From positions 42,474 through 106,473 of the forward strand of contig CAYJDM010000001.1 in NCBI GenBank assembly GCA_964368945.1: a stretch of 64,000 nucleotides of DNA. The letters are read 5' to 3'. Position 1 is the stretch's first letter, and each line of letters opens with the position of its first letter. The translations under genes and the position numbers were made by a program. Below, one piece after another: positions 6,401 to 36,134 of this stretch. The stretch comes from an uncultured Candidatus Saccharibacteria bacterium. GTDB taxonomy: Bacteria; Patescibacteriota; Minisyncoccia; Phycocordibacterales; CAIZLB01. Under the pieces are notes generated by a model. That model searched no databases. It was not told the DNA's origin and saw only the letters and a list, made by a program, of their open reading frames with translations.

Positions 6401-6641
6401 GCAGTATCTGAAATTCGTCAATGGAAAAAATACCGCAACCGAAAAAGTCTTGTCAGTCGAAGCAGAGGCGACGAAGCGATTGGATAGCGATAAGGATTTG
6501 ATCACCAATGGCCTCGAGCAATATATCGGGACGAATATTACCAAAAAAGATACGGATGACGATACGGTGGGCGATTATGATGAATTGCAGAAGGGTGGTA
6601 ATCCTAATGGTCCTGGTTCATGGGCAGTATTCCAAAAATAA
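3402..6641 (+). CDS. Large hypothetical membrane-anchored protein (1079 aa). It has a small N-terminal domain, a P/T/A/S-rich low-complexity region that includes TPTPTPTP, a single TM helix near aa 430-455, and a C-terminal region of about 620 aa.
   Basis: Uninterrupted 3.2-kb ORF. A KKKKSHLKLFLWLALILVLGALGYGY transmembrane segment is present. No recognisable catalytic motif. An alternative leaderless start at ATG 3411 lies 11 nt downstream of TATAAT. Confidence 0.6.
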   Translation: MHIMPSLKEYVLTLKKYNPKTEDRLLKIYLLKAGWPISDIETAFAEYNAGHTSGAPMPSQAASVAVPAPVVSAIPAATASKIPTSTAIEVAAPEIEPAHIAKPMQPTPTPTPTPPSASSSKLPPITAGINRQPSPASPSQIEIAPREISPVTNAIPVVGTSASIPAGIPTTIAPVTTAVDIEVQSNEPMGGFLSPFPNTQNAPLPKEPENALPIIDGSIDRDSYGKIIVPGENAAADSGILLKTPTVASIEILTALADGDAAKVPGDPMYVMPDIERDLAAPHASDAQNDFKEKISTAPSEHILVSTTAEREVVDPANMAGTVIDQARRQFASEDMAANQSAVMPAVAGSPSASGARSAMMASDSHSAFAGGGLASNQFTSSADVLNGMSAAVPASTAPAGMDGAGLASGPMMADASIIAQDPGPQPIVAPIKKKKSHLKLFLWLALILVLGALGYGYTRFVHGVYLFVNPPVGREEVLTYMTNSAAALETAEYTTQFHMRVAPREPGSESIDLNSIGLDPTLLAGGISTIKGSSTAPLTATTAVATDESADAGSATDTEDFLAAFPADANIDVTVKSFYQKNRDASGNAEIKSDNAFHHQGTYSGEGVTAKFDVESVIKGGVTYVKANEFPQMLLDIEPVKGKWISIQKSDEDLLKNVFPWLSLFSPLPSVMPSANASASTTNASGTPIMAASMGSLGGVTNLTKGFISPRPANADKQIARLISIADDEKVLQVIGDPIKNIQSGSAWYMPKRVTYVYKVKPDLAQFLVFIDRANTILQNEFGTSSIMALTDAQKAEINGPAFAKFFEYMTNNGRFAIEVDKYKALVGFEISINVVSETKRTEIGARISLDKINDRISIEAPKADLDFSDAYTQMTGQTREVMVLRNTAHVVEAIRSALAEYQAAHEGALPDDLMALLADPAGIKAFAAEPGLDDKNLLSLYQYKKMPATGNGSGSKQGYQLVYQIALPKVPEQFYELHQNLIGYDSASAISAGSERSLQYLKFVNGKNTATEKVLSVEAEATKRLDSDKDLITNGLEQYIGTNITKKDTDDDTVGDYDELQKGGNPNGPGSWAVFQK
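3715..3743 (+). repeat. Short tandem repeat (ccgact)x4 encoding (TP)n within the 1079-aa gene
   Basis: ccgactccgactccgactccgact visible in the sequence. The repeat is in-frame and a candidate for slipped-strand length variation. Confidence 0.5.
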
Positions 6642-16683: not shown

Positions 16684-18894
16684 TTACACGCAGATCATCA
16701 CCGGAATAATGATAGGTCGCTTCGCAGTCTGCTGGAAGATGAATCGGCCGAGAACGTCTGAGACGACATCCTTTACATAGTCGATATTGACCGGATGCAT
16801 ATCATGCGTAACCTGCTCGACGGTATTTTTTACCAAGAATCGAATCTCTCGAAGCAATTCCTGCGATTCTCGCAAGTATACTGAACCTCGTGAGATGATG
16901 TCCGGAGACTTCTTGAGGCGGCCAGTAGCGGCATTGATGACGCCTACGACCACATAGATGCCGTCCTGAGAAAGGATCTGTCGATCTCGGATGACGACGT
17001 CCTGGATATCGCCGATAGTGAATCCGTCCACCATGACCACATTGTCTGGGGCTTTAGCAGAGAGTCGGACCATCTTCGTGCCGTTCTCCTGGATCTCGAC
17101 GATCGTTCCATCATCTGGCACGCAGATATTGGCTCGAGGGATGCCGAGGTTTTCAGCAAGCTCAGCATGAAGCTTGGTCATATAGTAATGACCGTGGATG
17201 GGGATAAAGAATTTCGCTCGCATCTTTCGGTGCAGCCATTCGATTTCGCCTCGGTTACCGTGACCCGTCGAGTGGATATATACGTCCGAAGTTCGATAAT
17301 GCATGATCTTCGTTCCTTGTCGCGCGATGCTGTCCTTGAGCTTCTGAACAGACCGCTCATTTCCTGGAATGATCGAAGATGAAAGGAGGACCGTATCTCG
17401 CTCAGTCAATTTGAAATGCTTGTACTGATTGTTCGATACGCGCATGAGGAAGGCGAATTCCTCGCCCTGCGCACCCGTTGCGATGATTACGATTCGGTCT
17501 GGCGGATACTGGTCGATATCCTGAGGAGCGATGAAGATATTCTTGTTCACCTTGAGAATGCCGGCCTGGATGGTGATATCGACATTGTTCTTCATGCTTC
17601 GTCCTTCGATGATGACCTTCTTGCCGAATCGCTCGCAGGCATGGATGACATGCGCGATTCGATTCACATGAGAGGAGAACATGCCCATGATCAATCGGCC
17701 CGTAGAATTCTTTACGATTTCTTCGAGGTTTTCATGAACGACATAGTCAGGAGTAGAGAAGCCTGGGTTTTCGATATTCGTAGATTCTCCAAGGTAAAGG
17801 AGAACGTTCTTTCCATCAAAGAGCCCATAGTTCTTTTCTTCCTCCGCGGTCGGAACTCCATCTCGGTGATCGAGCTTAAAGTCTCCGGGAGTCGTAACGT
17901 ATCCATGAGGAGTCTCGATTGCGATACCCATTGAATCTGGGATCGAATGGTTTACTCCATAGAATTTGATTGAAAGGTCTCCGATCTTTACCTGAGCATC
18001 GCCTTCGATGATCCTATATTCAAAAGGCTTAACATGAGGGAATTCAGCCTGTCGCTTCTTGAGCATCAAGGCCGTAAGGTTTCGAGTGTAAATTGGCGGA
18101 TTGCCGATTCTGTCCATGATAAAAGGAAGGGCGCCGATATGGTCCAAGTGACCATGAGTCACAAGCATGGCTCGAACCTTATGCTTTCGCTCTTCGAGAT
18201 ACTTGGTGTTTGGCAGGATATAGTCGATACCTGGATGGTCAGAATCCTTGAATTTGAAGCCGGCATCGATAACGATGATGTCATTGCCGATTTCGACGAC
18301 GGTCATATTCATACCGACTTCTTCTACTCCTCCGAGAGGGATGACTCGGATATTTCCTGGCGCGAGCGGAGGGATGGCAACATTAGGGTTGCTCTTTTGG
18401 ATGCTCGAATGCTTCTGAGGCGAGCCTGTAGGGCGAGATCGCATTCTGTTTCGAGCATTCTTGAGTCGCATCTTCTGCTCTCGGTCATCGCCTCCATTTC
18501 CTCCAGGTCCGTTTTGTCCGCCAAAGCCTTGTCCTGACTGCTCAGTAGCTCGATGGCCATGGCCTATGGCGCCGTCCTGCGCATCGCCAAAGTCCGCATC
18601 TTCTGCGCGGATAGCGGTATCATTGTCTCCTGCGAATTCCTGGTCTTCAGGAAGGACGTCATCATGGTCGAATCGCTCGCTGAGGCTTTCGTCCTCGCTT
18701 GAAGCGGGGATGGGATCGAAATGGCGTTCTGCCTGAGCAGAGTCCGGTCCGGCTGGCGCGAATGTCTCGCGAGCAGCAGGGTTTTTGCCTTCGGCTTCGA
18801 GAGCCTGATTCACCAATTGCTTGAATTCTGAAACGGCATCGAGGTTTTTGTCTCCATTGTTTGCCGCTCCGTTAGTGTTATTGTTTTTGTTCAT
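16684..18894 (-). CDS. rnj: Ribonuclease J (MBL fold, beta-CASP and RNase J C-terminal domains) with an N-terminal low-complexity extension of about 170 aa
   Basis: IRVIPLGGVEEVGMNMTVVEIGNDIIVIDAGFKF...LVTHGHLDHIGALP and later conserved blocks. Confidence 0.9.
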   Translation of the reverse strand: MNKNNNTNGAANNGDKNLDAVSEFKQLVNQALEAEGKNPAARETFAPAGPDSAQAERHFDPIPASSEDESLSERFDHDDVLPEDQEFAGDNDTAIRAEDADFGDAQDGAIGHGHRATEQSGQGFGGQNGPGGNGGDDREQKMRLKNARNRMRSRPTGSPQKHSSIQKSNPNVAIPPLAPGNIRVIPLGGVEEVGMNMTVVEIGNDIIVIDAGFKFKDSDHPGIDYILPNTKYLEERKHKVRAMLVTHGHLDHIGALPFIMDRIGNPPIYTRNLTALMLKKRQAEFPHVKPFEYRIIEGDAQVKIGDLSIKFYGVNHSIPDSMGIAIETPHGYVTTPGDFKLDHRDGVPTAEEEKNYGLFDGKNVLLYLGESTNIENPGFSTPDYVVHENLEEIVKNSTGRLIMGMFSSHVNRIAHVIHACERFGKKVIIEGRSMKNNVDITIQAGILKVNKNIFIAPQDIDQYPPDRIVIIATGAQGEEFAFLMRVSNNQYKHFKLTERDTVLLSSSIIPGNERSVQKLKDSIARQGTKIMHYRTSDVYIHSTGHGNRGEIEWLHRKMRAKFFIPIHGHYYMTKLHAELAENLGIPRANICVPDDGTIVEIQENGTKMVRLSAKAPDNVVMVDGFTIGDIQDVVIRDRQILSQDGIYVVVGVINAATGRLKKSPDIISRGSVYLRESQELLREIRFLVKNTVEQVTHDMHPVNIDYVKDVVSDVLGRFIFQQTAKRPIIIPVMICV

Positions 18895-21155: not shown

Positions 21156-21191
21156 AGACCGTCTCGGAGAGGGCAGAGCCCCGAGAACGGT
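21156..21191 (-). terminator. hairpin terminator downstream of the 163-aa gene
   Basis: gaccgtctcgg...ccgagaacggtc stem, with a T-tract on the minus strand. Confidence 0.45.
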
Positions 21192-21682
21192 CATTTTTCT
21201 TCATCGTTCGCGGTTTGGCGGGGTTGATAGGATGACAGATGCGCCTGATTGAGCCTTATGGTGGCGATGGCGCCTTCCGAGACGGTCTGGAAGTAGGCAT
21301 AGGCCGAAACTACCGCATTTCTCGGTATTTCGATGGCGCCAGGCCTGTTCAGTCTAGCGTAATCATCTTTGGCTTTCAGCGCCTTTTCCACTGCCAGGAA
21401 GTACTCCTCGCAGCCTTTTAGCCTGCCGAACCAGATCTTCCAGCATGTCAGGCGCTCTGGACCCCGAGGAAATCCTGCATCATCACTACCTGGTGGCAGG
21501 CTGGCGACAAAGACCTCACGCATCCTTTCGTCGATTTCGCGGAGTGTTTCTCTGGCTTTTGCGATGAATTCTCGGATGTCTTCAGCGGTATTCGCTTTGA
21601 TCTTGTCGCGCAGATCGTTCATGTATCGGCCGAGCACTCGACCGATACCTTCGGAGGTGTCGGTTGGGGCGCGTTTGAACAT
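21191..21682 (-). CDS. hypothetical protein (163 aa), divergent from the MerR-family regulator
   Basis: ORF; no recognisable domain. Confidence 0.45.
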   Translation of the reverse strand: MFKRAPTDTSEGIGRVLGRYMNDLRDKIKANTAEDIREFIAKARETLREIDERMREVFVASLPPGSDDAGFPRGPERLTCWKIWFGRLKGCEEYFLAVEKALKAKDDYARLNRPGAIEIPRNAVVSAYAYFQTVSEGAIATIRLNQAHLSSYQPRQTANDEEK

Positions 21683-21872: not shown

Positions 21873-22730
21873 ATGACACAAAATAGAGCCATATATAGAG
21901 AGGATCCAGGCAATTCAAGGCGCGGAATGGATGACCCGACCGCTTTTGCCAAACACCTTGCGTCATATAGTATTCAAGAACTCGCAAAACTTGCGAATGT
22001 TAGCAAGCGGACGCTCAAGCATTATGACGAGGTCGGCCTGCTCAAGCCGCAGCGGCAGGGGAGCAATAATTACCGCAGATATACGCGCGATGAGCTTTTG
22101 CGGCTCCAGCAGATCCTTTTCTTCAAGGAATTGGATTTTCCTCTGAATGAAATAAAGAAAATCATGAATTCGCCGAACTTCGATATGCAGAAAGCGCTCG
22201 AGAATCATCGCGCGCTCATTGCGATCAAGCGAGACCGATTGGATAGGCTCATGAAGACGATCGACCAGACAATTACAAAGATAAAAGATCCAAAAGATAA
22301 AAAAACACTTATGACAGATCAAGACTTATATTCTTCTTTTTCAAAAGAAGAGGAGGAGAAATATGCCGCCGAGGCAAAAGACAGATGGGGAAATACTGAG
22401 GCCTATAAGCAATCGCAGGAACGATATGGAAAAATGTCCGACCGGGAGAAAGAGGCCGTGGCTGTGGCGGGCGATACGCTTATGAAGGAAATCGCAAAAG
22501 CATTCAAGGCAGGCGAAAGCGCGACTGGTCCTGGAATGCAGAAATTGATAGCAAGGCATTATGAAGGGTTGCGAACATTCTATGATCCGAATCCGGAAAT
22601 GTACCGAGGCTTGGGAGAAATGTATGTTGCAGACGAGCGATTCACCGCATTTTATGACCGATATGCGGTAGGCCTCGCTCCATTCATGCGTGATGCGATG
22701 GTTGCATACACTGAAGGGCTTGCCGCATAG
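21873..22730 (+). CDS. MerR-family transcriptional regulator with a TipAS-like C-terminal effector domain (TipAL-like)
   Basis: HTH at YSIQELAKLANVSKRTLKHYDEVGLL. C-terminal EMYVADERFTAFYDRYAVGLAPFMRDAMVAY resembles TipAS. The start may be the internal ATG at about 21927. Confidence 0.8.
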   Translation: MTQNRAIYREDPGNSRRGMDDPTAFAKHLASYSIQELAKLANVSKRTLKHYDEVGLLKPQRQGSNNYRRYTRDELLRLQQILFFKELDFPLNEIKKIMNSPNFDMQKALENHRALIAIKRDRLDRLMKTIDQTITKIKDPKDKKTLMTDQDLYSSFSKEEEEKYAAEAKDRWGNTEAYKQSQERYGKMSDREKEAVAVAGDTLMKEIAKAFKAGESATGPGMQKLIARHYEGLRTFYDPNPEMYRGLGEMYVADERFTAFYDRYAVGLAPFMRDAMVAYTEGLAA

Positions 22731-22752
22731 ATAAGTGATATACTATTTCCAT

Positions 22753-23415
22753 ATGAAAGTAGTAGGAATCGGAATATTCATAATCATGGTGATGGGCCTG
22801 ATATTTTTTACCATTCAAATCGTAAAACAGGTCGACTTCAAGGCAATCCCTTCTGCGCAGGACAAGACGCAAAGCCTCAATACCTTTGCCGATATCAAAT
22901 CCAGCATCACATTCCAATATCCCGAAACATGGACGCTCCAATCTTCTGGTGCCTCTGCGCAATTTGCGCCGGTATTCAAAGCGATTGTCGCTGAAAATGC
23001 TGCGGGATATTTTGGCATATCGCGAAAAGAGCTCAAAAGATATCCGACATCCGCCGAGGATTTCGAATTCTATTCTGAGGATACGGCATTCAAGAGCTTT
23101 TTGAATGATGTCATTGCCAAAGATTCAGGCATTGCAGATGATGAGATAAAAATCATAAGCTCATCGCGCTCTGCCTTGAAGAATGGCCTGCCTGGATTCC
23201 AGGTCCAGTATTCTGTCAGGAATATCCGGGGCACGGTCTATTATCTATATTCGCGAGATGCCTTGCAGATGGTGATCTCTGCTTTTGTGAGCGATCAGGC
23301 TATTGATGCAGGTGATGCTGGCGCAACAGGCAATCCTGCTGTGAAAAACGATCCGCTCTATACGAATTTCAAGGCGAGCGTGGATGCGCTGATGAATACG
23401 TTTTTGACTATCTAG
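22753..23415 (+). CDS. hypothetical membrane-anchored protein
   Basis: ORF 4 nt after the MerR gene stop; N-terminal TM helix. Confidence 0.45.
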   Translation: MKVVGIGIFIIMVMGLIFFTIQIVKQVDFKAIPSAQDKTQSLNTFADIKSSITFQYPETWTLQSSGASAQFAPVFKAIVAENAAGYFGISRKELKRYPTSAEDFEFYSEDTAFKSFLNDVIAKDSGIADDEIKIISSSRSALKNGLPGFQVQYSVRNIRGTVYYLYSRDALQMVISAFVSDQAIDAGDAGATGNPAVKNDPLYTNFKASVDALMNTFLTI

Positions 23416-25665: not shown

Positions 25666-26241
25666 ATGAACCCAATCACAATAATAGTAACGGTACTCGT
25701 CGTCATCCTGCTGGTCTATATCGTGTCGCTTTATAATAAATTCGTCTCATATATAAATAGGACAAAGGAAGCCTGGGCGGATATCGATACGCAGATCAAG
25801 CGACGATATGATCTCATTCCGAATCTCGTCAATACGGTCAAAGGCTATGCGGCACATGAATCGCAGACTCTCGAGGCGGTGATCTCTGCGCGAAATAGCG
25901 CCATCAATTCGAAGAACGATAAGGCGAATATGCATGATCAGGCAGAAAAGGAAAATGCCATCACGGGCGCTCTCAAGTCCGTCTTCGCCCTCTCCGAGGC
26001 ATATCCTGATCTCAAGGCGAATCAGAATTTCCTCGAATTGCAGCGAGAATTGTCTGACACTGAAAATAAGCTGCAGGCGGCTCGACGCTTCTATAATGGC
26101 AATGTCCGAGATCTCAATACTCGAGTGGAGCTTTTCCCGTCAAATATCATCGCCCGAATCTTCAAGTTCGGCAAAATGGCATTCTTTGAATTGGGAGAGG
26201 AGAAGGAGGCTGCGCAGAAGCCTGTTGAGGTGAAATTCTAA
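25666..26241 (+). CDS. lemA: LemA family protein
   Basis: N-terminal TM helix plus IKRRYDLIPNLVNTVKGYAAHE...AYPDLKAN...ARRFYNG signature. Confidence 0.85.
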   Translation: MNPITIIVTVLVVILLVYIVSLYNKFVSYINRTKEAWADIDTQIKRRYDLIPNLVNTVKGYAAHESQTLEAVISARNSAINSKNDKANMHDQAEKENAITGALKSVFALSEAYPDLKANQNFLELQRELSDTENKLQAARRFYNGNVRDLNTRVELFPSNIIARIFKFGKMAFFELGEEKEAAQKPVEVKF

Positions 26242-27414
26242 ATGATCATGAAGCATTCGCCAGAAAGCAGCGTCGAAGCGCCTGAAATCCCTTCAGTAGA
26301 CGAAGGGGGCAAAGAAGAGGGTCCTGAGCTCTTTTCGCAAAAGCTCAAGGGCATTTTCGTAAGGGCCGTGACAGAAGGGATCATGGATTCTGGGTATGAT
26401 CTGCATGATGAAATGCAAAAAGAAAGAGGCGTCGAATTCGTAGAGCAGAGGATCCTCGAAAAAGCCTCAAAAGGAAATCTCCTTGAGGCATATGCAGACG
26501 GATCCGATCTGAATGGCGCAGAAATAAGAGACTGCATGGACGATGGGTCGTATTATTGGATGCACAAAAAAGATATGGGCAGGGAAAGAGAGCAGGGCTC
26601 GATTGTCAAGGAAACCGTGGCAATCGAAAGCGCCAGGACTCACGAAAGGATTTTTTCTAGGATAGATATTGAAAATAGATCCAGCCGAGAAAGCATTTGC
26701 ATGAACGATATTCTTCCTGATTCATGTTTCTTCGCTCCTAATAATGATTACCCTATGAAGTCATATCATGGCGCTGATGTGAGCAATGGCAGCTTTGGCT
26801 ATGTTCCAGCTCAAGGCAGCGCCCCCTTCAATACGGTCTTATACGGGGACATTGGCTCTAATCAGGGGTTGATCAGCTTGCTGCATGAGGTGGCGCATGC
26901 ATGGCAGGACCGTTGCCAGCCATCGGCAATACACGATTATCTATATGTGCAGGGTTTGCTTAAAAGGACGTTGGATGTCATGACTCTTGAAGACGCGCTT
27001 TCTCTGAATGATTCGGACTTCGGCAATATCAACGTCGCTTTGGAGAATGAGATATTGGACATCGTAGGAGCTCCGGTAGGAACGACCCATGAGGAGATGA
27101 AAAAGAAGGCTCGCGATTGCATTGATGAAACGTCTGCTTTTTTAAAAAATTCTGGAATCGAAATGCATGCAGGGAAAGTGAAAGACATCACCAATCTTCA
27201 TCTCAAAGTCGCAGCGAAAAATTTTATTTGGGCAGAGCGCCATGCCTCGAGCACCGCACTAAAGGCATATAGGGCCATGAAGGCGGCTGATCTGATCCCT
27301 GATCCTGATGAGACTGATGATATTCTCGGGCATATTCATGATGGCCTGTCTTCATATCAGCAGTTGCTTCCCATTTTAGAATTAGAAGAAGTAGGAGATT
27401 TTACAAAAAAATAA
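26242..27414 (+). CDS. cytoplasmic HExxH protein with a DUF4157-like zincin motif (SAPFNTVLYGDIGSNQGLISLLHEVAHAWQ)
   Basis: The HExxHxxQ motif is preceded by a G-rich segment, as in DUF4157. No signal peptide. Located between lemA and htpX. Confidence 0.5.
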   Translation: MIMKHSPESSVEAPEIPSVDEGGKEEGPELFSQKLKGIFVRAVTEGIMDSGYDLHDEMQKERGVEFVEQRILEKASKGNLLEAYADGSDLNGAEIRDCMDDGSYYWMHKKDMGREREQGSIVKETVAIESARTHERIFSRIDIENRSSRESICMNDILPDSCFFAPNNDYPMKSYHGADVSNGSFGYVPAQGSAPFNTVLYGDIGSNQGLISLLHEVAHAWQDRCQPSAIHDYLYVQGLLKRTLDVMTLEDALSLNDSDFGNINVALENEILDIVGAPVGTTHEEMKKKARDCIDETSAFLKNSGIEMHAGKVKDITNLHLKVAAKNFIWAERHASSTALKAYRAMKAADLIPDPDETDDILGHIHDGLSSYQQLLPILELEEVGDFTKK

Positions 27415-27428
27415 AGATTCATATTCAC

Positions 27429-28352
27429 ATGGCCACACTCTACACCCACCAAGAATCAAATATCTCTAAAACATGGCTACTCATGCTATTCATGTTCGCG
27501 CTTATCATGGGCGTCGGATGGTTTTTGAGCTATTACTATAATAATCCCGCGATTCTAGTCATCGCAGTCATATTCAGCGTGGCGATGAATATTTTCAGCT
27601 ATTGGTTTTCTGATAAAATCGCCCTCTCGATGTCAGGCGCGAAGCCGACTTTCGATGCTGACCATGCCGATGCAATTCAGCCGCAATATATAGAGCTCAA
27701 TCGAATCGTCGAGAATCTCGCTATCACTGCCGGGCTTCCAAAGCCTCGCGTCTATGTGATCAATGATGCGGCGCCGAATGCATTCGCGACTGGCCGAAAC
27801 AAAAATCATAGCGCGATTGCCGTGACTACAGGGTTGCTTGCCACGCTCAACAGAGCGGAGCTCGAAGGGGTGCTGGCGCATGAGATGGCGCATGTCGGCA
27901 ATAAGGATATCCTGATCTCGACGATTGCTGTGGTTCTTGCTGGGTTCTTGTCGATCGTCGCCGATATGTTCATGCGATCGAGCCTGTATGGATTCGGAGG
28001 AGGGAATAGTGACAATGACAATGGCAAAGCGGGCGGATGGCTCATGATTGTCGGAATAGCGCTCATGGTCCTCGCGCCGATTGCCGGCTTTCTGATCCGA
28101 ATGGCCATTTCGCGAAATCGAGAATATTTGGCTGATGCAACGGGCGCGCTTATCACGCGATATCCGGAGGGCTTGGCCAGCGCATTGGAAAAGATTTCTT
28201 CATATCAAGCTCCGATGAATAAGGCGACGAATGCTACCGCTCATCTATACATATCAAATCCATTCGGCGCTAAGGCAATGCGCGGCATGCATGCATTGTT
28301 CATGACGCATCCGCCGGCGGAGGAGCGGATTAAAAGATTGCGACAGGGCTAA
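27429..28352 (+). CDS. htpX: zinc metalloprotease HtpX (M48 family)
   Basis: HEMAHVGNKD zinc-binding motif, four TM helices and conserved C-terminal block. Confidence 0.85.
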   Translation: MATLYTHQESNISKTWLLMLFMFALIMGVGWFLSYYYNNPAILVIAVIFSVAMNIFSYWFSDKIALSMSGAKPTFDADHADAIQPQYIELNRIVENLAITAGLPKPRVYVINDAAPNAFATGRNKNHSAIAVTTGLLATLNRAELEGVLAHEMAHVGNKDILISTIAVVLAGFLSIVADMFMRSSLYGFGGGNSDNDNGKAGGWLMIVGIALMVLAPIAGFLIRMAISRNREYLADATGALITRYPEGLASALEKISSYQAPMNKATNATAHLYISNPFGAKAMRGMHALFMTHPPAEERIKRLRQG

Positions 28353-29110
28353 ACTACAATCCGCGGCTCAATCTTCCAAGTGGTTTGGAATATGTAATCA
28401 TTATGTCCCAATATCTGCTTCACTCGATCGAATTCATCGTCATTTAAATCAAAACGTTCTTTGAAGCCTTGAGACGGGCTCTCGATCTTTCTGTATTGGA
28501 TTCTTGAAAATTCAACCGACAATGTTTCGAGGTGATTTTCGATAGTCTTTGCAGATGAGAAACAGGCAGTCGGTCGATATAGTTTTTGAATAGCTCCACC
28601 TACTAGCTCTTGAAAACTTTCTTCCCAAGAAGCGCCATCTGAATCAGGTGCGCCGAGATGCTGAATCAATACGCAGTTCTTGGTCACTCTCACTGCCTCA
28701 GATAGTATGCGCAGCTGTTCTTCCAAGTTGTTCCAATGAAGGACATATCTCATTATTGCAAAATCAAAACTTTTATCACCAAACGGCAGCATCGATGCTG
28801 GTGATTGTATCGTGTGGTATGCGATTTTATTCAATGAGAGGGCTTGCTCGTTCTCATCTGTGGCAGTTGTCTCAAATTGCATTTCAGGAAGCCGAGATAA
28901 GATTCTTTCCAAGAGCTCCCCTTTATACGATCCGATATCGAGCAGGGAAAAGGGCTTACCTTTCACATCTAGCCCGCCCACTTCTTCGCGCAATGCCGTC
29001 GAGAAAAGGATGGGTGTTTGATTGAATAATTCATCAATAACCTTTGAGGTTGCGGTCTTTCCGGCGAAAATGTCCGAAGCTTTTTCTCCCATATCCTTGA
29101 AAGATGACAT
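28349..29110 (-). CDS. class I SAM-dependent methyltransferase
   Basis: KPFSLLDIGSYKGELLERIL motif I. Confidence 0.6.
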   Translation of the reverse strand: MSSFKDMGEKASDIFAGKTATSKVIDELFNQTPILFSTALREEVGGLDVKGKPFSLLDIGSYKGELLERILSRLPEMQFETTATDENEQALSLNKIAYHTIQSPASMLPFGDKSFDFAIMRYVLHWNNLEEQLRILSEAVRVTKNCVLIQHLGAPDSDGASWEESFQELVGGAIQKLYRPTACFSSAKTIENHLETLSVEFSRIQYRKIESPSQGFKERFDLNDDEFDRVKQILGHNDYIFQTTWKIEPRIVV

Positions 29111-29124
29111 GTTATAATCATATC

Positions 29125-30126
29125 ATGCAGAAATTGGTATTTTTCGACACAACTCTCCGGGATGGCGAACAGGCTCCTGGGAATACGATGAATCCGAGAC
29201 AGAAGCTTGAGATAGCACTCGCATTGGAAAATTTGGGTGTCGATATCATCGAGGCAGGATTCCCGGCTTCTTCCGAAGAGGATTTTGAAGCATGTACGAT
29301 GATTGCCGAAAATATAAAAAATAGCGTGGTGTGCGGCTTTGCTCGCTGTAAAGAGGAGGATATCATGGCGGTGTTTAATTCCTTAAGAAATGCCAAAAAA
29401 CCAGCAATTCATATTTTTCTTCCTGTCTCCGATTTGCATCTTGAGAAAAAAATGGGTATCGATAGGGCGGCAGCGCTAGCTCTGGCCGAGCAGACTCTCA
29501 AAAAAGTGTCTGATAAATTCGCGACCGTTTATTTCGGGCTTGAGGATGCGACACGGGCGGACGAAGGCTTTCTGATCGAGATGATTGGATTGATTTCGAA
29601 ATACCATGTTGATTGTATCAATCTCGCTGATACAGTCGGGCGCTCTCAGCCAAATGAGATCGAGGCACTAGTCATTAGATTGAAAAAAGAGTTCCCGGAT
29701 CAGTCTTTTGGATTGCATTGTCATAATGATTTAGGCTTAGCCACGGCGAATGCATTAGCAGCTGTGCACGCTGGAATACATCAGATACAAGTTACGATGA
29801 ATGGCATAGGCGAGAGAGCTGGAAATACGGCACTCGAAGAGGTTGTCGCAGCATTGATAGCAAGACCGGATTACTATAATGATGTAAGCTTCAATATCCT
29901 CTCGAAAAAGATAAGGAATGTATCAAGTCTGGTATACCAAACGCTCGGAAGGACGGCATCGTTTGAAAAATCTGTAGTAGGCATCAACTCCTTTCGACAT
30001 GAGGCAGGGATACATGTTGACGGTCTTCGAAAAGATGCGAAAACATATGAGATATTTGACCCTCAAGAATTCGGTTATGAACGAGAAATAGTACAAGGCA
30101 GGCATTCGGGAAAAACTAATACATAA
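29125..30126 (+). CDS. 2-isopropylmalate/homocitrate/citramalate synthase family protein (HMGL-like catalytic domain only, about 333 aa)
   Basis: [13 protein letters not shown] ... [20 protein letters not shown] signature. Lacks the LeuA C-terminal regulatory domain. Confidence 0.7.
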
Positions 30127-30139
30127 TTTACACAATCTC

Positions 30140-31255
30140 ATGAACCTTTCTACAAATAAAACTGACTCAGCAGAAAAGGAAATATATATCGCCGGAGGTT
30201 GCTTCTGGTGTACTGAAGCGGATTTTGCCAAAGTCCCGGGCGTGATTTCCGCGACATCGGGATATTCTGGCGGCCATAAGGCGAATCCGACATATGCCGA
30301 AGTCTGCAGCGAGACTACGGGCCATCGAGAGGCGGTCAAGGTCCTCTATGATCCCGCGCAGACGACATATCGCGATCTGCTCATTTTCTTTTTCGAGCAT
30401 ATCGATCCGACAGATGCCGGAGGGCAATTCCATGATCGGGGCGAGAGCTATACAACGGCGGTTTTTTATCAAGATGATACGGAAAAAGAAATTGCCGAAG
30501 AGCTGATCGCCAAGCTGAATGATACGAATGTATTCGGAGCGCCGATTGCGACGCTGGTTTTGCCGTATGCGAATTTTTATCCTGCGGAGGAATATCATCA
30601 GAATTATAGCGAAAAAAGCCCCGCGCATTATCTGCGATACCGCGCAGCCAGCGGCCACGATGAAGTGGTCAGCAGAAATCAGGGAAAAGTCGCTCGCGTC
30701 TGCGCAATCAAGGACGAGGCAAAAATCGTCAAGGATCTCAAATCCGTTCTCGGAGAATTGCCTGTCGTCACTGCTGTAAATGATCCTGCGAATCCCGCGA
30801 ATTCATGCGCGGATCCTGAACCGGTCGGTATGACGAACAAGGATTTATCGAAACTCAATGATCTCCAATATCATGTTACCCAGACCGAAGGTACCGAGCC
30901 GCCTTTTCAGAATGAATATTGGGACAATCATGAAGAGGGAATCTATGTCGATGTCGTTTCTGGCGAGCCTCTTTTTTCATCGCATGACAAATACGATTCG
31001 GGCACTGGCTGGCCTAGCTTCGTGAAGCCTATAGATGAGAATGCGCTCGCGACAAAAACGGACATGAAGCTCGGCGTGCCTCGCGTAGAAGTTCGCAGCA
31101 AGGTTGCAGATTCGCATCTTGGCCACGTATTCGATGATGGCCCGAAAGATCGCGGCGGCAAGAGATATTGCATGAATTCGGCATCTATGCGCTTTATTCC
31201 AAAATCAAAGCTTGAGGAGGCGGGTTATGGGAAATATGCTGCGCTGTTTCAATAA
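30140..31255 (+). CDS. msrAB: bifunctional peptide methionine sulfoxide reductase MsrA/MsrB
   Basis: MsrA GCFWCTE at the N-terminus; MsrB CxxC...[10 protein letters not shown]...RYCMNS at the C-terminus. Confidence 0.9.
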
Positions 31256-31428: not shown

Positions 31429-31803
31429 TTGCGCGATCTGGAGCTCATTCATCCGATCAATAGGCCGACAGCAATGGAAAAAGTGCGCGATAGAGCGAAA
31501 TCGCTCATGCCGGTTCGTGATCGATTGTTGCGAGAGGGCGCAATTTCAAATGAGATGCTGATCGAATTCATGCCGTCGGTCAGCCCAATACAGGTGATTC
31601 CTTTTGAAGGCAAATATCTGGCATTTGAAGGCAATGGCCGATTGGCCTCGCTTCAAGAAGTTTTCAAAGGCAAAGAAATGATGCTCGATGTCGAAGAATT
31701 TAAAATCTCTGATAATTCTCAAATACTGGAAGATATTAAGAAATTGCAAGAAATATTCGCGAGCACAAGTGGATATGAAAAAACGGGGCCTCAGCATTGC
31801 TGA
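31429..31803 (+). CDS. ParB/sulfiredoxin-like domain protein (124 aa from a TTG start). May be the 3' part of a frameshifted gene that begins at 31283.
   Basis: LRDLELIHPINRP...VRDRL...QVIPFEGKYLAFEGNGRLASL resembles the ParB N-terminal domain. The upstream ORF 31283..31561 looks protein-like only in its first ~47 aa. Confidence 0.4.
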   Translation: MRDLELIHPINRPTAMEKVRDRAKSLMPVRDRLLREGAISNEMLIEFMPSVSPIQVIPFEGKYLAFEGNGRLASLQEVFKGKEMMLDVEEFKISDNSQILEDIKKLQEIFASTSGYEKTGPQHC

Positions 31804-33261: not shown

Positions 33262-33457
33262 TGCGGTGTATCAGTTATGTCTTGGTTGACGGTTGTTCTT
33301 AGGAAGGCTTTCTTATCCAGCATATGGAACATATTTAAAAAACCTCTGCCAGTATCATGCCTTTTGAGGGTTTTTTCGTCAAACGGTCTGGTGAGCGATT
33401 TTTTATGCCTATTTCAGAACTTTGACCTTTGGGTATGAAAGGGCATATAATTGCCCC

Positions 33458-34141
33458 ATGCCAGCAACAAACAAAAAACTATTTGTCATCTCATTTATCA
33501 TAGCCGTCATAGCGATACTCGGCTTCATTTGGTTCGCCACTACCCATCTGGGCACTCCTGAATACGGAGTGGACAATGGCCATGGCACGACCACGCCTGA
33601 ATTGCCTCTCGGAAATATCGAATATCCGGAACCGGGCGAGACTCCTGTGGATGCATTCGCATATGCGGATGTATTCTTCACGACGCTCAATGCTTTTCCT
33701 GATGGAAAGGGCGCAGGCGCTATCGGCTGCGGCGACGGACTCGTCTCATACAGGATTCCTGTCGATGAGATAAATGCCGCGACTCGCGGAGATCTCAGCT
33801 CATTCCTTCTGCAGAAGATCCAGGATCCTGCCTTCTTCGCTGAAGCAAAGCTCTCATATGCCGCATCATTCGATCCTGCTACAAAGAATTCGCCTATCAA
33901 GGTTCTCGCTGGTCCTGCAGACAAGAATCTGGAATTGTATAGCGTGCTCTCTCGGACGAAGCTGACGGTTCAAAGCCTCAAGGATGTCCCTGGTGCATAT
34001 GAGCTCAAGCTCAAGGGTCAGGCGACTCTCGGCGGAGTATGCGATCAGCCTCGATTGCAGGCTCAGCTCCAGCATCTAGCTGAATCTGGCGTCGCTACGA
34101 CGACCGATGTCTCAGTATTCTTGAACGGCAAGAAGCTCTAA
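33458..34141 (+). CDS. hypothetical secreted/membrane-anchored protein
   Basis: N-terminal TM/signal segment; no recognisable domain. Confidence 0.45.
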   Translation: MPATNKKLFVISFIIAVIAILGFIWFATTHLGTPEYGVDNGHGTTTPELPLGNIEYPEPGETPVDAFAYADVFFTTLNAFPDGKGAGAIGCGDGLVSYRIPVDEINAATRGDLSSFLLQKIQDPAFFAEAKLSYAASFDPATKNSPIKVLAGPADKNLELYSVLSRTKLTVQSLKDVPGAYELKLKGQATLGGVCDQPRLQAQLQHLAESGVATTTDVSVFLNGKKL

Positions 34142-34160: not shown

Positions 34161-36134
34161 TCAGAAATTTCTAACGATCGACAGCTCCCATTTGGCGCGA
34201 ATCACCTTGATTGCGAAAGCATTGAGGTGTTTTTGCAATATAGGCGTGAGGTTGTGACCGGATGGAATTGCGGATTTTGCCGCGAGAATATTCCTGAATA
34301 TTTCGCATTCTATTTCTGCCTGAGTGTGCAGGATGCGCATTGTGGTCGCTTTCGGATTCTTGGCTGATTCATCTGAGCTTTCATCCTTGGCATCGTCGGA
34401 AATTTGCCGCGCCAGATTGAAATGCTCAAAGAATGTGCGGATCGACATGACTTCGCTTTCCGATGCGCCAGCTTTGAGCATTGCAAGCATTGGGACGAGG
34501 GAAGTGCCTATGGATTTGCGAGCATGCATGCAGAGCGGCATTTGGCCTTCGCTTTTGGTCAGGAGGAGATATGAGATATCCGTGTCTATCAGGATGCTTT
34601 CGATTTCCGCAGGTATTTGGATATCGTGCTCTTCGATCCCGTCAATCAGTTTTTGCAGCTGGGCTTGGAATACGGTATTTGTGAGGAAGAGGATTGGCAG
34701 AGATTGCGGCAGGAGCTCCTGGTCGTAGATTTTGTCATATAGGAAATATGTGCAAAGCCCTAATGCATGCGTCAGCATGGCATCCTCGAGCCAGTCCTGA
34801 TCGCTTATGATTGCAGCGCATGATTCCAGAGAGATCGTGAAATCCGTCCCGGATAATAATCTTTCCACGATTTCCGTATGATCGCTGAGGACTTCGAATT
34901 CGGTCAGGGTGGTACGGATCGAATCGACGATTGAAATTTCAGGCGAGGAGTATGGACTGAGAATGGGCTCTGCCTGAGATGCAGATATGCCGATTCCATT
35001 GGCGGCATACTCAGCGTACTCTCTGAAGGAGATTGTCCCGATTGCGGTTTCGAACATGGCCAGAAATGATATGAGCCGGCTTGCAGCATATCTCGTCTTG
35101 CCATCTTTCATTGAGTGGATATACAGAGGATCTGCGTCTGGCTCTCGCAAGGGTATTTCATTGAGCACAGCTATTGTATCTTTGGCTAAGTTCGGCGGCG
35201 CCAGTCTCAATAGGCTGGCGGCATAGAAATAAAGGTCGGTATCGTTTTCGATTCTGATGCGATGGCTGACGGTTTCTTTTTTCTCCATAATCGTATTCAT
35301 GATAAAACTTGCCAGCTCTGACCTTTGCTCATTAGACCAGACGCATCTGGATATCATATATATGGCAACGGGCAGGGAATGATAGAAATCGGAAAACCAA
35401 AGCGACTCTATCGGATTGCGCAGAAATGCCATAAGCTTTTCGAATATATGGGATTTGGTCCGAAACATATGCGATGGGTCTACGGCATCGAAAAATGCCA
35501 CAACAGAAGACATTGCGACGATGTCAGCGGATTCCCATTCCGTATCGTCCTCAGCGCAGTCTGGCCGCTTTGCTTTGTCCGAGTCGGCGAACCATGTATT
35601 GAATAGATGCGGCGAATCCGGCTTGCGAGCCTCTTCTAGATTCTTGAGGCAATTTGCGAAAATCGAGCTTGGCGGCATTCGGTCTTTCCATGCATGGGTC
35701 GAAAGCGCATGCAAAGCGCTGAATGTGCTATCTATATCGGCTGGCAGGCATCCATCATTCTCGATTCCTTCCAGATTGGCATGAATCCAATCGAAGGCGT
35801 TTTCATCCAGTGAACGATTAAAGCCCACCGGGTGAAAATAATTGAGACGATCGCGGCTGTCTTTTGATCCAAATAATCTGATGGCAATACTGTCTGCGAA
35901 TCTGCGTATTTCAGATATCATATAGGGCATCCTATAATCGCTTTCCTTGAATGAAACCGCCGAATCTATATATACCAGAATGCGGGAAAGGGAAGTGAGG
36001 GCGACGCTGTCGATGAATGATATGGGAGGTTCGGCTGCCGTGCCCGCTTGTGCCAAGGCAAATAGCTTTTCGATGCAATCGAATATATCGAGTTTCTGGT
36101 ATGGATGAGCGCTTGCTGGGTTTTTCTTGGTCAC
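34161..36134 (-). CDS. large hypothetical alpha-helical protein (657 aa), no TM; Asp-rich motif LARQISDDAKDESSDE near the C-terminus
   Basis: Long ORF ending beside tRNA-Ser. No confident domain match. Confidence 0.55.
   Translation of the reverse strand: MTKKNPASAHPYQKLDIFDCIEKLFALAQAGTAAEPPISFIDSVALTSLSRILVYIDSAVSFKESDYRMPYMISEIRRFADSIAIRLFGSKDSRDRLNYFHPVGFNRSLDENAFDWIHANLEGIENDGCLPADIDSTFSALHALSTHAWKDRMPPSSIFANCLKNLEEARKPDSPHLFNTWFADSDKAKRPDCAEDDTEWESADIVAMSSVVAFFDAVDPSHMFRTKSHIFEKLMAFLRNPIESLWFSDFYHSLPVAIYMISRCVWSNEQRSELASFIMNTIMEKKETVSHRIRIENDTDLYFYAASLLRLAPPNLAKDTIAVLNEIPLREPDADPLYIHSMKDGKTRYAASRLISFLAMFETAIGTISFREYAEYAANGIGISASQAEPILSPYSSPEISIVDSIRTTLTEFEVLSDHTEIVERLLSGTDFTISLESCAAIISDQDWLEDAMLTHALGLCTYFLYDKIYDQELLPQSLPILFLTNTVFQAQLQKLIDGIEEHDIQIPAEIESILIDTDISYLLLTKSEGQMPLCMHARKSIGTSLVPMLAMLKAGASESEVMSIRTFFEHFNLARQISDDAKDESSDESAKNPKATTMRILHTQAEIECEIFRNILAAKSAIPSGHNLTPILQKHLNAFAIKVIRAKWELSIVRNF

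What the first reader, a model, noticed from the sequence alone, without database searches (positions are those of the whole stretch)
25666..28352. Cytoplasmic DUF4157-like HExxH protein inserted between lemA and htpX
LemA and the membrane protease HtpX form a conserved stress-related pair. Here a 390-aa soluble protein sits between them. It carries a zincin-like HEVAHAWQ motif preceded by a glycine-rich segment (PFNTVLYGDIGSNQGLISLL), matching the DUF4157 pattern. DUF4157 domains are uncharacterised putative metallopeptidases that often occur in polymorphic toxin or effector contexts.

The start codon is contiguous with the lemA stop (26241/26242). The htpX start lies 15 nt after this gene's stop. 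Together this suggests one operon. The protein could be an HtpX partner, regulator or substrate, or a moonlighting toxin-like domain.
Basis: partly seen in the sequence, partly recalled or inferred. Interest (0 to 1): 0.55.

Follow-up and report, generated by a model that had tools for sequence, protein, structure and literature searches.

The report
Uncurated HExxH protein between lemA and htpX
The gene between lemA and htpX is real and belongs to a small, previously undescribed family of soluble proteins from ultra-small (Patescibacteria) bacteria that carry an invariant zinc-protease-like HExxH motif, but it is not a DUF4157 protein and its position next to HtpX is a one-off in this genome.

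Summary
lemA (25666-26241), a 390-aa soluble ORF "X" (26242-27414) and htpX (27429-28352) lie head to tail on the + strand with 0 and 14 nt between them.

X matches no Pfam, NCBIfam, PHROG, PADLOC or PDB sequence model. DUF4157 does not appear even at E<=10, for X or for 16 relatives. An exhaustive HMMER search of 1.84 billion proteins found about 18 relatives, and a metagenome scan found 26 more loci. Across 39 sequences at 13-27% identity to X, Y201, H215, E216, H219, W221, Q222, E332, R333 and P353 are invariant.

None of 33 family loci elsewhere contains lemA or htpX, and their neighbours are unrelated housekeeping genes. In 22 of 68 other genomes, mostly Patescibacteria, the lemA-htpX gap holds different, unrelated cargo. 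Co-transcription here is likely. A functional partnership with HtpX, or a toxin role, is not supported.

The parts
25666..26241 (+). lemA (191 aa; N-terminal membrane helix plus LemA domain)
   Evidence: PF04011 LemA, E 2.9e-58, profile positions 1-149 of 149. It lies upstream of htpX in 68 of 80 related loci.
26227..26232 (+). Shine-Dalgarno-like GAGGTG inside the 3' end of lemA, 9 nt before the X start codon. The lemA TAA (26239-26241) abuts the X ATG (26242-26244), an arrangement that allows translational coupling.
   Evidence: Read directly from the sequence. That it functions as a ribosome-binding site is an inference.
26242..27414 (+). Gene X: a 390-aa soluble, acidic protein and a member of an uncurated, Patescibacteria-associated HExxH family
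   Evidence: ORF. No Pfam, NCBIfam, PHROG, PADLOC or PDB sequence hit. Homologues P0003-P0006 at E 1e-21 to 1e-25, plus about 13 weaker ones, and 26 metagenome loci. Alignments A2 and A3. AlphaFold model with pLDDT 75.4 and pTM 0.80.
26842..26907 (+). Core motif, residues 201-222 (YGDIGSNQGLISLLHEVAHAWQ): the end of a beta-strand, a Gly-containing loop and the HExxH helix. Y201, H215, E216, H219, W221 and Q222 are invariant. H215 and H219 are the proposed zinc ligands and E216 the proposed general base.
   Evidence: Invariant columns in 39 sequences. The model places strand 197-201 and helix 207-225 here, with pLDDT of 89-95. The catalytic roles are inferred from the zincin paradigm.
27235..27240 (+). 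E332-R333, an invariant Glu-Arg on predicted helix 319-348. E332 is the candidate third zinc ligand (the 'glutamate helix').
   Evidence: Invariant in 39 sequences; helix assignment. A low-confidence hhalign alignment puts this helix about 2 residues out of register with the M48 REYLAD third-ligand helix. The ligand role is inferred, because model coordinates could not be inspected.
27429..28352 (+). htpX (307 aa; membrane M48 zinc protease, HEMAH at residues 151-155)
   Evidence: PF01435, E 2e-34. NCBIfam HtpX models up to E 1.2e-95, below the equivalog cut-offs. The closest relatives, at 61% identity, are in Patescibacteria MAGs.

Best explanation
X is a genuine protein-coding gene from a small family that no library used here curates. 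So far the family has been seen only on contigs that are Patescibacteria-like or of unknown origin.

The family is soluble, with no signal peptide or membrane helix. It has a beta-rich N-terminal half, and the last strand of that half (V-x-Y-G-D) leads through a Gly-containing loop into a helix carrying the invariant motif HExxHxWQ. About 110 residues later, a long helix carries an invariant Glu-Arg.

The most likely mechanism is a cytoplasmic zinc-dependent hydrolase, probably a gluzincin-like peptidase. In this reading H215, H219 and E332 hold the zinc, E216 activates the water, and Y201, Q222 and R333 line the site. This step is inferred, not shown.

The family is not DUF4157, M48 or any other curated zincin family, and its predicted fold has no solved counterpart.

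Its position in the lemA-htpX operon is a lineage-specific insertion. In the mostly Patescibacteria genomes surveyed, that intergenic slot often holds unrelated accessory genes. X is therefore probably co-transcribed with lemA and htpX here, but a dedicated functional link with them is not indicated.
For: Real gene and family. The exhaustive HMMER search gave 19 hits, four of them full length at 27-32% identity with E 1e-21 to 1e-25. A metagenome scan gave 26 further loci.

Conserved site. Y201, H215, E216, H219, W221, Q222, E332, R333 and P353 are invariant across 39 sequences with a mean column identity of 19%.

Solubility. No family member has a hydrophobic 19-mer above KD 1.6, and most members are acidic.

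Structure. The model (pLDDT 75, pTM 0.80) shows a beta region at 104-201, then the HExxH helix at 207-225 with pLDDT around 90, and E332 on helix 319-348.

Zincin-type motif. hhalign aligns the family's strand-loop-HExxH helix with the HExxH helices of DUF4157 and M48. The scores (22-24) exceed all 60 column-shuffled nulls, which average 9-13.

Incidental location. None of 33 family loci has lemA or htpX. Their neighbours are unrelated housekeeping genes such as alr, gltX, miaA, pheA, rsgA, murG, recQ, holA and rpsT. Twenty-two of 68 other lemA-htpX loci carry 0.45-3 kb of unrelated cargo, including NUDIX, 23S_rRNA_IVP, Gmad2, DUF2207, DUF6159, PIN and PDDEXK_3.

Co-transcription. The stop and start codons abut, the second gap is 14 nt, and no plus-strand terminator lies between the genes.
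Against: No curated zincin HMM matches any family member, and the family profile finds no PDB sequence.

The model rests on only 17 sequences. I could not inspect its coordinates, so the convergence of H215, H219 and E332 is untested.

X itself has Ser where 90% or more of members have Trp336 (ERxAW), so it may be a divergent member.

The HExxH-to-Glu spacing of about 113 residues is long for a gluzincin.

The taxonomic restriction rests on few labelled records: the window's HtpX relatives and one protein that NCBI labels Patescibacteria.
Confidence: 0.6

Rival explanations
1. X is a divergent DUF4157 (PVC-metallopeptidase-like) domain protein. It would act as DUF4157 is proposed to act, in the loading, maturation or neutralisation of a toxin or effector.
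For: The local pattern G-x-x-L-L-x-HExxH-x-x-Q, preceded by a beta-strand, is shared. The best trimmed hhalign result is P 6e-4 with probability 29% over 36 columns, and the score lies above all 60 shuffles.
Against: PF13699 is not hit at E<=10 by any of 17 members. The hhalign signal is confined to the motif, and M48 scores about the same (22.1 against 22.8). According to PMC8213781, DUF4157 is an ~80-aa domain, usually at the N-terminus of toxins or next to them, and a marker of eCIS loci. Here the motif lies at residue 215 of 390 within a 365-530-aa conserved architecture. The relatives scanned carry no toxin domain, and no eCIS or toxin domain is listed among the neighbours' Pfam hits. There are no PADLOC hits and no relatives on viral contigs.
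Confidence: 0.08
2. X is a dedicated partner of the LemA/HtpX membrane quality-control module. It would be a soluble adaptor, regulator, co-protease or substrate, recruited into the operon because it works with HtpX.
For: The gene packing is tight (0 and 14 nt) with no intervening terminator, so co-expression is likely. Both X and HtpX carry HExxH. The lemA-htpX pair is strongly conserved. One other slot occupant, DUF2207 in L009, is a membrane protein and a plausible LemA partner.
Against: None of 33 loci encoding family members has lemA or htpX within reach. The four closest relatives sit next to an endonuclease III-type glycosylase/DUF2177, VanY, an ABC ATPase, or unannotated genes. The slot holds unrelated genes in 22 other genomes and is empty in 46. 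X has no membrane anchor.
Confidence: 0.12
3. The family is not a peptidase. The HExxH/E-R site would bind a metal for another reaction (an amidase or other hydrolase acting on a non-protein substrate) or for a structural or regulatory role, on a fold unrelated to zincins.
Against: An invariant H-E-x-x-H on a helix directly after a beta-strand, plus an invariant downstream Glu on another helix, is the classical gluzincin signature (established knowledge of MEROPS clan MA). The invariant Glu216 argues for catalysis rather than metal binding alone.
Confidence: 0.2

Closest known systems
DUF4157 (Pfam PF13699; 'PVC-metallopeptidase', a marker of eCIS toxin loci)
   Same: An HExxH on a helix preceded by a beta-strand and a Gly-containing loop. 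The local pattern G-x-x-L-L-x-H-E-x-x-H-x-x-Q is shared, including the Gln three residues after the second His. Both are biochemically uncharacterised.
   Different: There is no HMM match, and profile-profile similarity is limited to about 23-36 motif columns at low probability. DUF4157 is an ~80-aa module, typically N-terminal to or adjacent to toxins in eCIS loci (PMC8213781). The X family is a 365-530-aa single architecture with the motif in the middle, additional invariant residues (Y201, W221, E332-R333, P353), housekeeping neighbours and no recognisable fused toxin domains.
Peptidase family M48 (HtpX/Ste24) and related minigluzincins (MEROPS clan MA(E))
   Same: HExxH plus a Glu on a later helix as the presumed third ligand, with a long insert between the two elements. 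A low-confidence hhalign alignment lays the family's ERxAW helix roughly on the M48 REYLAD helix. An M48 member is the immediate downstream gene.
   Different: There is no significant sequence relationship: hhalign probability is <=13% and there is no PF01435 hit. X is soluble, whereas HtpX has four membrane helices. The flanking conserved motifs differ (NAFATG and REYxAD in M48; YGD, HxWQ and ERxAW in the X family). The 16/17-nt identity between the two HExxH-coding stretches reflects only shared residues and codons.
Other gluzincins with HExxHxW or HExxHxxQ motifs (for example M1 aminopeptidases, HExxHxW; M9 collagenases, HExxHxxQ). Recalled from memory and not tested here.
   Same: Trp at +2 or Gln at +3 after the second His occurs in these families. 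This shows that such decorations are compatible with active zinc peptidases.
   Different: In those families the third-ligand Glu lies 18-30 residues after the motif, whereas the invariant Glu here is about 113 residues away. The position about +16, which is Glu in many members, is not conserved. There are no HMM hits to M1 or M9.

Membership tests
DUF4157 (PF13699) | Significant match to the PF13699 profile HMM | tested here: not met
   hmmscan of X at E<=1 gave no hit. hmmscan of all 17 members of A2 at E<=10 did not list PF13699.
DUF4157 (PF13699) | Profile-profile homology covering the ~80-aa domain, not just the motif | tested here: not met
   hhalign of A3 against a genuine PF13699 alignment (A5) aligned 23 columns, P 0.021, probability 2.3%. 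Trimmed cores reached at best 36 columns, P 6e-4, probability 29%. The score equals that against M48.
DUF4157 (PF13699) | HExxH with Gln at +3 and G-x-x-L-L immediately upstream | tested here: met
   The family consensus is GGxLSLLHEIAHAWQ and the DUF4157 consensus is GRRLLAHELTHVVQQ.
DUF4157 (PF13699) | Context: N-terminal module fused or adjacent to toxin domains, and association with eCIS loci (PMC8213781) | tested here: not met
   The motif lies at residue 215 of 390. The longer members scanned have no Pfam toxin domain. No eCIS or toxin family is listed among the neighbours' Pfam hits, and those neighbours are housekeeping genes (only 25 of 39 families were shown). No PADLOC hit.
Zincin / gluzincin metallopeptidases (MEROPS clan MA(E)) | Invariant HExxH on an alpha-helix | tested here: met
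   H215, E216 and H219 are invariant in 39 sequences. The model places them on helix 207-225 with pLDDT around 90.
Zincin / gluzincin metallopeptidases (MEROPS clan MA(E)) | Third zinc ligand (Glu) on a downstream helix that packs against the active-site helix | tested here: inconclusive
   E332 is invariant and lies on predicted helix 319-348.
Zincin / gluzincin metallopeptidases (MEROPS clan MA(E)) | Zincin fold (mixed beta-sheet plus active-site helix) recognisable by structure comparison | tested here: not met
Zincin / gluzincin metallopeptidases (MEROPS clan MA(E)) | Zinc binding and peptide-bond hydrolysis | not testable with these tools
   Requires biochemistry.
Peptidase M48 (HtpX-like) | Match to PF01435 or the NCBIfam HtpX models; the NAFATG and REYxAD motifs; membrane helices | tested here: not met
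   No hit. hhalign probability <=13%. No hydrophobic segments.
Conserved LemA-HtpX operon component | Recurrent co-localisation of the family with lemA and/or htpX across genomes | tested here: not met
   None of 33 family loci has a lemA or htpX homologue. None of 80 HtpX loci has an X homologue.

The most novel reading that the evidence does not exclude
The family is a new zinc metallopeptidase family specific to Patescibacteria, built on a fold with no solved or curated counterpart. That would make it a new MEROPS family, possibly a new structural solution around an HExxH...E site. In this one lineage it would have been captured into the lemA-htpX membrane-stress operon, where it acts as a soluble arm of HtpX-mediated quality control.
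Probability: 0.1. Interest if true: 0.6.

Novelty: new variant of a known kind. Interest (0 to 1): 0.36.

Why it matters
Patescibacteria (CPR) have tiny genomes full of unannotated genes. A conserved soluble protein with an invariant metalloprotease-type site, absent from Pfam, NCBIfam, PHROGs, PADLOC and the PDB, is a concrete and testable candidate for a new peptidase family in a lineage whose proteolytic machinery is poorly known.

The practical value is modest: a family definition (alignment A3 and its invariant residues) that could seed a new Pfam or MEROPS entry.

The negative results also matter. The protein should not be annotated as DUF4157 or toxin-like. Its adjacency to htpX should not be read as a conserved functional module, because the lemA-htpX gap in these genomes is a recurrent landing site for unrelated accessory genes.

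Tried and rejected
- **Word-indexed homologue searches.** With X alone, and then with the family alignment, these returned only X itself and one relative. The family became visible only through the exhaustive HMMER search.
- **Single-sequence AlphaFold.** The model was unusable, with pLDDT 35.
- **afdb50 fold search.** This library was unavailable.
- **X related to other lemA-htpX slot occupants.** Rejected: phmmer all-against-all found no relation, with best E 0.23.
- **X as a duplicated or derived piece of htpX.** Rejected. The 16/17-nt repeat is only the HE[VM]AH codons, and the profiles are otherwise unrelated.
- **Mobile-element, phage or defence origin.** There are no flanking repeats, no relatives on viral contigs, no PHROG or PADLOC hits, and GC and codon usage are not outliers.
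- **A paralogue elsewhere in the window.** None found.
- **A conserved neighbour gene for the family.** None found.
- **P0014.** This 1050-aa repeat protein was discarded as a low-complexity false positive. P0002 and P0011 are fragments.
- **Literature.** Searches for the motif, and for Patescibacteria with HExxH metallopeptidase, returned nothing.
Full report
**1. Observation**

The ORF map and raw sequence confirm three co-directional genes on the + strand:
- lemA at 25666-26241 (191 aa)
- an unannotatable ORF "X" at 26242-27414 (390 aa)
- htpX at 27429-28352 (307 aa)

The lemA TAA is immediately followed by the X ATG, and 14 nt separate the X stop from the htpX ATG. An SD-like GAGGTG lies 9 nt upstream of the X start. 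No plus-strand terminator-like hairpin and no convincing internal promoter lies between the genes.

LemA matches PF04011 at E 2.9e-58. HtpX matches PF01435 at E 2e-34 and the NCBIfam HtpX models at up to E 1.2e-95.

X contains the quoted peptide, with HEVAH at residues 215-219. It has no hydrophobic segment and is acidic. Its GC content (0.46) and codon usage are unremarkable for the window.

**2. Organism and the lemA-htpX pair**

The closest HtpX relatives, at no more than 61% identity, are all in Patescibacteria/Paceibacteria-type MAGs.

The spacing varies, however. In 46 loci the genes are under 300 bp apart. In 22 other loci, and in this window, 0.45-3 kb intervenes. The intervening genes are heterogeneous and unrelated to X (best phmmer E 0.23). 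They include NUDIX hydrolases, 23S-rRNA-IVP/bAvd-like proteins, Gmad2 Ig-like proteins, PsbP-like proteins, DUF2207, DUF6159, PIN, PD-(D/E)XK and several proteins with no family. The lemA-htpX gap is thus a recurrent insertion slot in these mostly Patescibacteria genomes.

**3. What X is**

X hits nothing in Pfam (E<=1), NCBIfam, PHROGs (E<=10), PADLOC or PDB sequences. The word-indexed search of 5.8 billion proteins found only X itself.

The exhaustive HMMER search of 1.84 billion representatives found 19 hits:
- four full-length relatives of 365-390 aa at 27-32% identity (E 1e-21 to 1e-25)
- about a dozen longer proteins of 420-726 aa (E 1e-7 to 8e-4)
- two fragments
- one repeat-protein false positive

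A metagenome scan with the degenerate motif found 26 more loci.

A 39-sequence alignment (A3, mean column identity 19%) has these invariant columns: Y201, H215, E216, H219, W221, Q222, E332, R333 and P353. Near-invariant columns are E124, L158, P159, P166, F185, G202, L211, L213, A335, W336, A339, R344, G348, L369, Y372, Q373 and F387. The family consensus is V-x-Y-G-D-L-x-K-K-G-G-x-L-S-L-L-H-E-I-A-H-A-W-Q ... E-E-R-D-A-W-A-H-A-I-x-x-L-R-F-L-R-x-x-G-x-D-L-E-P ... S-Y-Q. X retains every invariant residue but has Ser in place of the near-invariant Trp336.

None of the 17 members scanned hits any Pfam family meaningfully at E<=10, and the family profile finds no PDB sequence. No member has a signal peptide or membrane helix. 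Literature searches for the motif, and for Patescibacteria HExxH peptidases, returned nothing.

**4. Structure**

Single-sequence AlphaFold failed, with pLDDT 35. With the 17-sequence alignment the model reached pLDDT 75.4 and pTM 0.80. It shows:
- a disordered acidic N-terminus (residues 1-26)
- a conserved helix at 28-44
- a beta-rich region at 104-201, whose last strand (197-201) ends in Y201-G-D
- the HExxH helix at 207-225 (pLDDT about 90)
- variable helices, then a beta-hairpin at 306-316
- a long helix at 319-348 carrying E332-R333
- a final helix at 361-379 carrying Y372-Q373

This order (sheet, then active-site helix, then a later "glutamate helix") is what a gluzincin would show. The fold searches do not confirm it:
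- Foldseek against the PDB: best E 0.33, TM about 0.1
- BFVD: best E 0.014, TM 0.11
- afdb50 was unavailable

I could not read the model coordinates, so whether H215, H219 and E332 converge remains untested.

**5. The DUF4157 claim**

I built a genuine PF13699 alignment (A5) from 30 proteins.

- hhalign of the full family profile against A5 aligns only 23 columns, exactly the motif (kkGGmLSLLHEIAHAWQ against t.eGrrLLAHELtHVVQQ), with P 0.021 and probability 2.3%.
- After trimming the family to its core, the best result is 36 columns, P 6e-4, probability 29%.
- The same cores against an M48/HtpX alignment (A6) give P 2e-3 and probability 13%, with nearly identical raw scores (22.1-23.5 against 22.8-24.3).
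- All these scores exceed 60 column-shuffled nulls.

The resemblance to a zincin HExxH helix is therefore real at motif level, but it does not single out DUF4157.

The context does not fit either. DUF4157 is an ~80-aa module, usually at the N-terminus of toxins or adjacent to them, and a core marker of extracellular contractile injection system loci (PMC8213781). Here the motif lies in the middle of a conserved 365-530-aa architecture. The longer members scanned carry no recognisable toxin domain. No eCIS or toxin family is listed among the neighbours' Pfam hits.

**6. The HtpX-partner idea**

The four closest relatives lie in unrelated contexts:
- between an HhH-GPD glycosylase and DUF2177
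- after a VanY peptidase
- before an ABC ATPase
- between two unannotated genes

tblastn found no lemA or htpX in any of the 33 family loci. Conversely, the family profile found no member in the 80 HtpX loci. Immediate neighbours of the longer members are unrelated housekeeping genes, including alanine racemase, GluRS, MiaA, prephenate dehydratase, RsgA, MurG, RecQ, the DNA polymerase III delta subunit and S20.

There are no flanking repeats, no viral relatives and no compositional anomaly that would date or explain the insertion. The adjacency is specific to this lineage. Co-transcription is likely, but a dedicated functional link is not supported.

**7. Mechanism proposed**

Shown: a real, conserved, soluble protein family with an invariant HExxHxWQ on a predicted helix and an invariant ER on a later helix, and probable co-transcription with lemA and htpX in this genome.

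Inferred: a zinc-dependent hydrolase, most likely a gluzincin-type peptidase acting in the cytoplasm. H215, H219 and E332 would be the metal ligands and E216 the general base, with Y201, Q222 and R333 shaping the site.

Confidences:
- overall explanation: about 0.6
- real gene and family: above 0.95
- metal-dependent hydrolase: about 0.6
- location incidental rather than functional: about 0.75

Rivals:
- divergent DUF4157 or toxin-associated protein: 0.08
- dedicated LemA/HtpX partner: 0.12
- non-peptidase metal site on an unrelated fold: 0.2

**8. Novelty and verdict**

This is a new, small, uncurated family with a known kind of catalytic signature, so I rate it a new variant of a known kind. 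It is worth a Pfam or MEROPS entry and a simple biochemical test. Interest is 0.36.

Noticed in passing
Loci L002-L081, upstream of the htpX match (for example L003:634-1119, L006:1798-2721, L009:3917-5719, L012:4996-5925, L021:3461-6001, L027:2373-3299): The lemA-htpX intergenic position is a variable slot in these mostly Patescibacteria genomes. In 46 of 68 other loci the gap is under 300 bp. In the other 22 it holds 0.45-3 kb of unrelated cargo: NUDIX, 23S_rRNA_IVP/bAvd-like, Gmad2, PsbP-like, DUF2207, DUF6159, PIN, PD-(D/E)XK and several proteins with no family. Why this junction accumulates accessory genes is unexplained.
   Followed up: partly
window 3402-6641 (+) and 34161-36134 (-): Two large ORFs (1079 aa and 657 aa) have no Pfam match at E<=1e-4. 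Smaller ORFs at 21191-21682 (-), 22735-23415 (+), 31429-31803 (+) and 33422-34141 (+) also have no match.
   Followed up: no
window 16684-18894 (-): This RNase J homologue (736 aa) has its metallo-beta-lactamase domain starting only at about residue 196. That leaves an N-terminal extension of about 190 aa with no Pfam match.
   Followed up: no
window 26883-26899 and 27878-27894: The DNA encoding the HExxH motifs of X (HEVAH) and HtpX (HEMAH) is identical at 16 of 17 nt. This is explained by shared residues and codon choice. The two proteins are otherwise unrelated (hhalign probability <=13%).
   Followed up: yes
window 28349-29110 (-), 29104-30126 (+), 30140-31255 (+): Downstream of htpX the genes are tightly packed. 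A convergent class I methyltransferase overlaps the htpX stop by 4 nt. Its start overlaps a divergent HMGL-like (homocitrate/isopropylmalate synthase-type) gene. A fused MsrA-MsrB methionine sulfoxide reductase follows.
   Followed up: no
window 21873-22730 (+): A MerR-family regulator with a TipAS antibiotic-recognition domain lies a few genes upstream of lemA. PGA_cap and DUF1189 genes lie in between.
   Followed up: no
L087:4847-6271 and L095:643-2049: In two metagenome loci the X-family gene is split into two adjacent same-strand ORFs, both of which match the family profile. This could be a frameshift, a pseudogene or an assembly error.
   Followed up: no
P0012 (726 aa), residues ~475-726: One family member carries a C-terminal extension of about 250 aa with no Pfam hit. 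Its sequence looks vaguely kinase-like by eye. It is the only fusion seen in the family.
   Followed up: no
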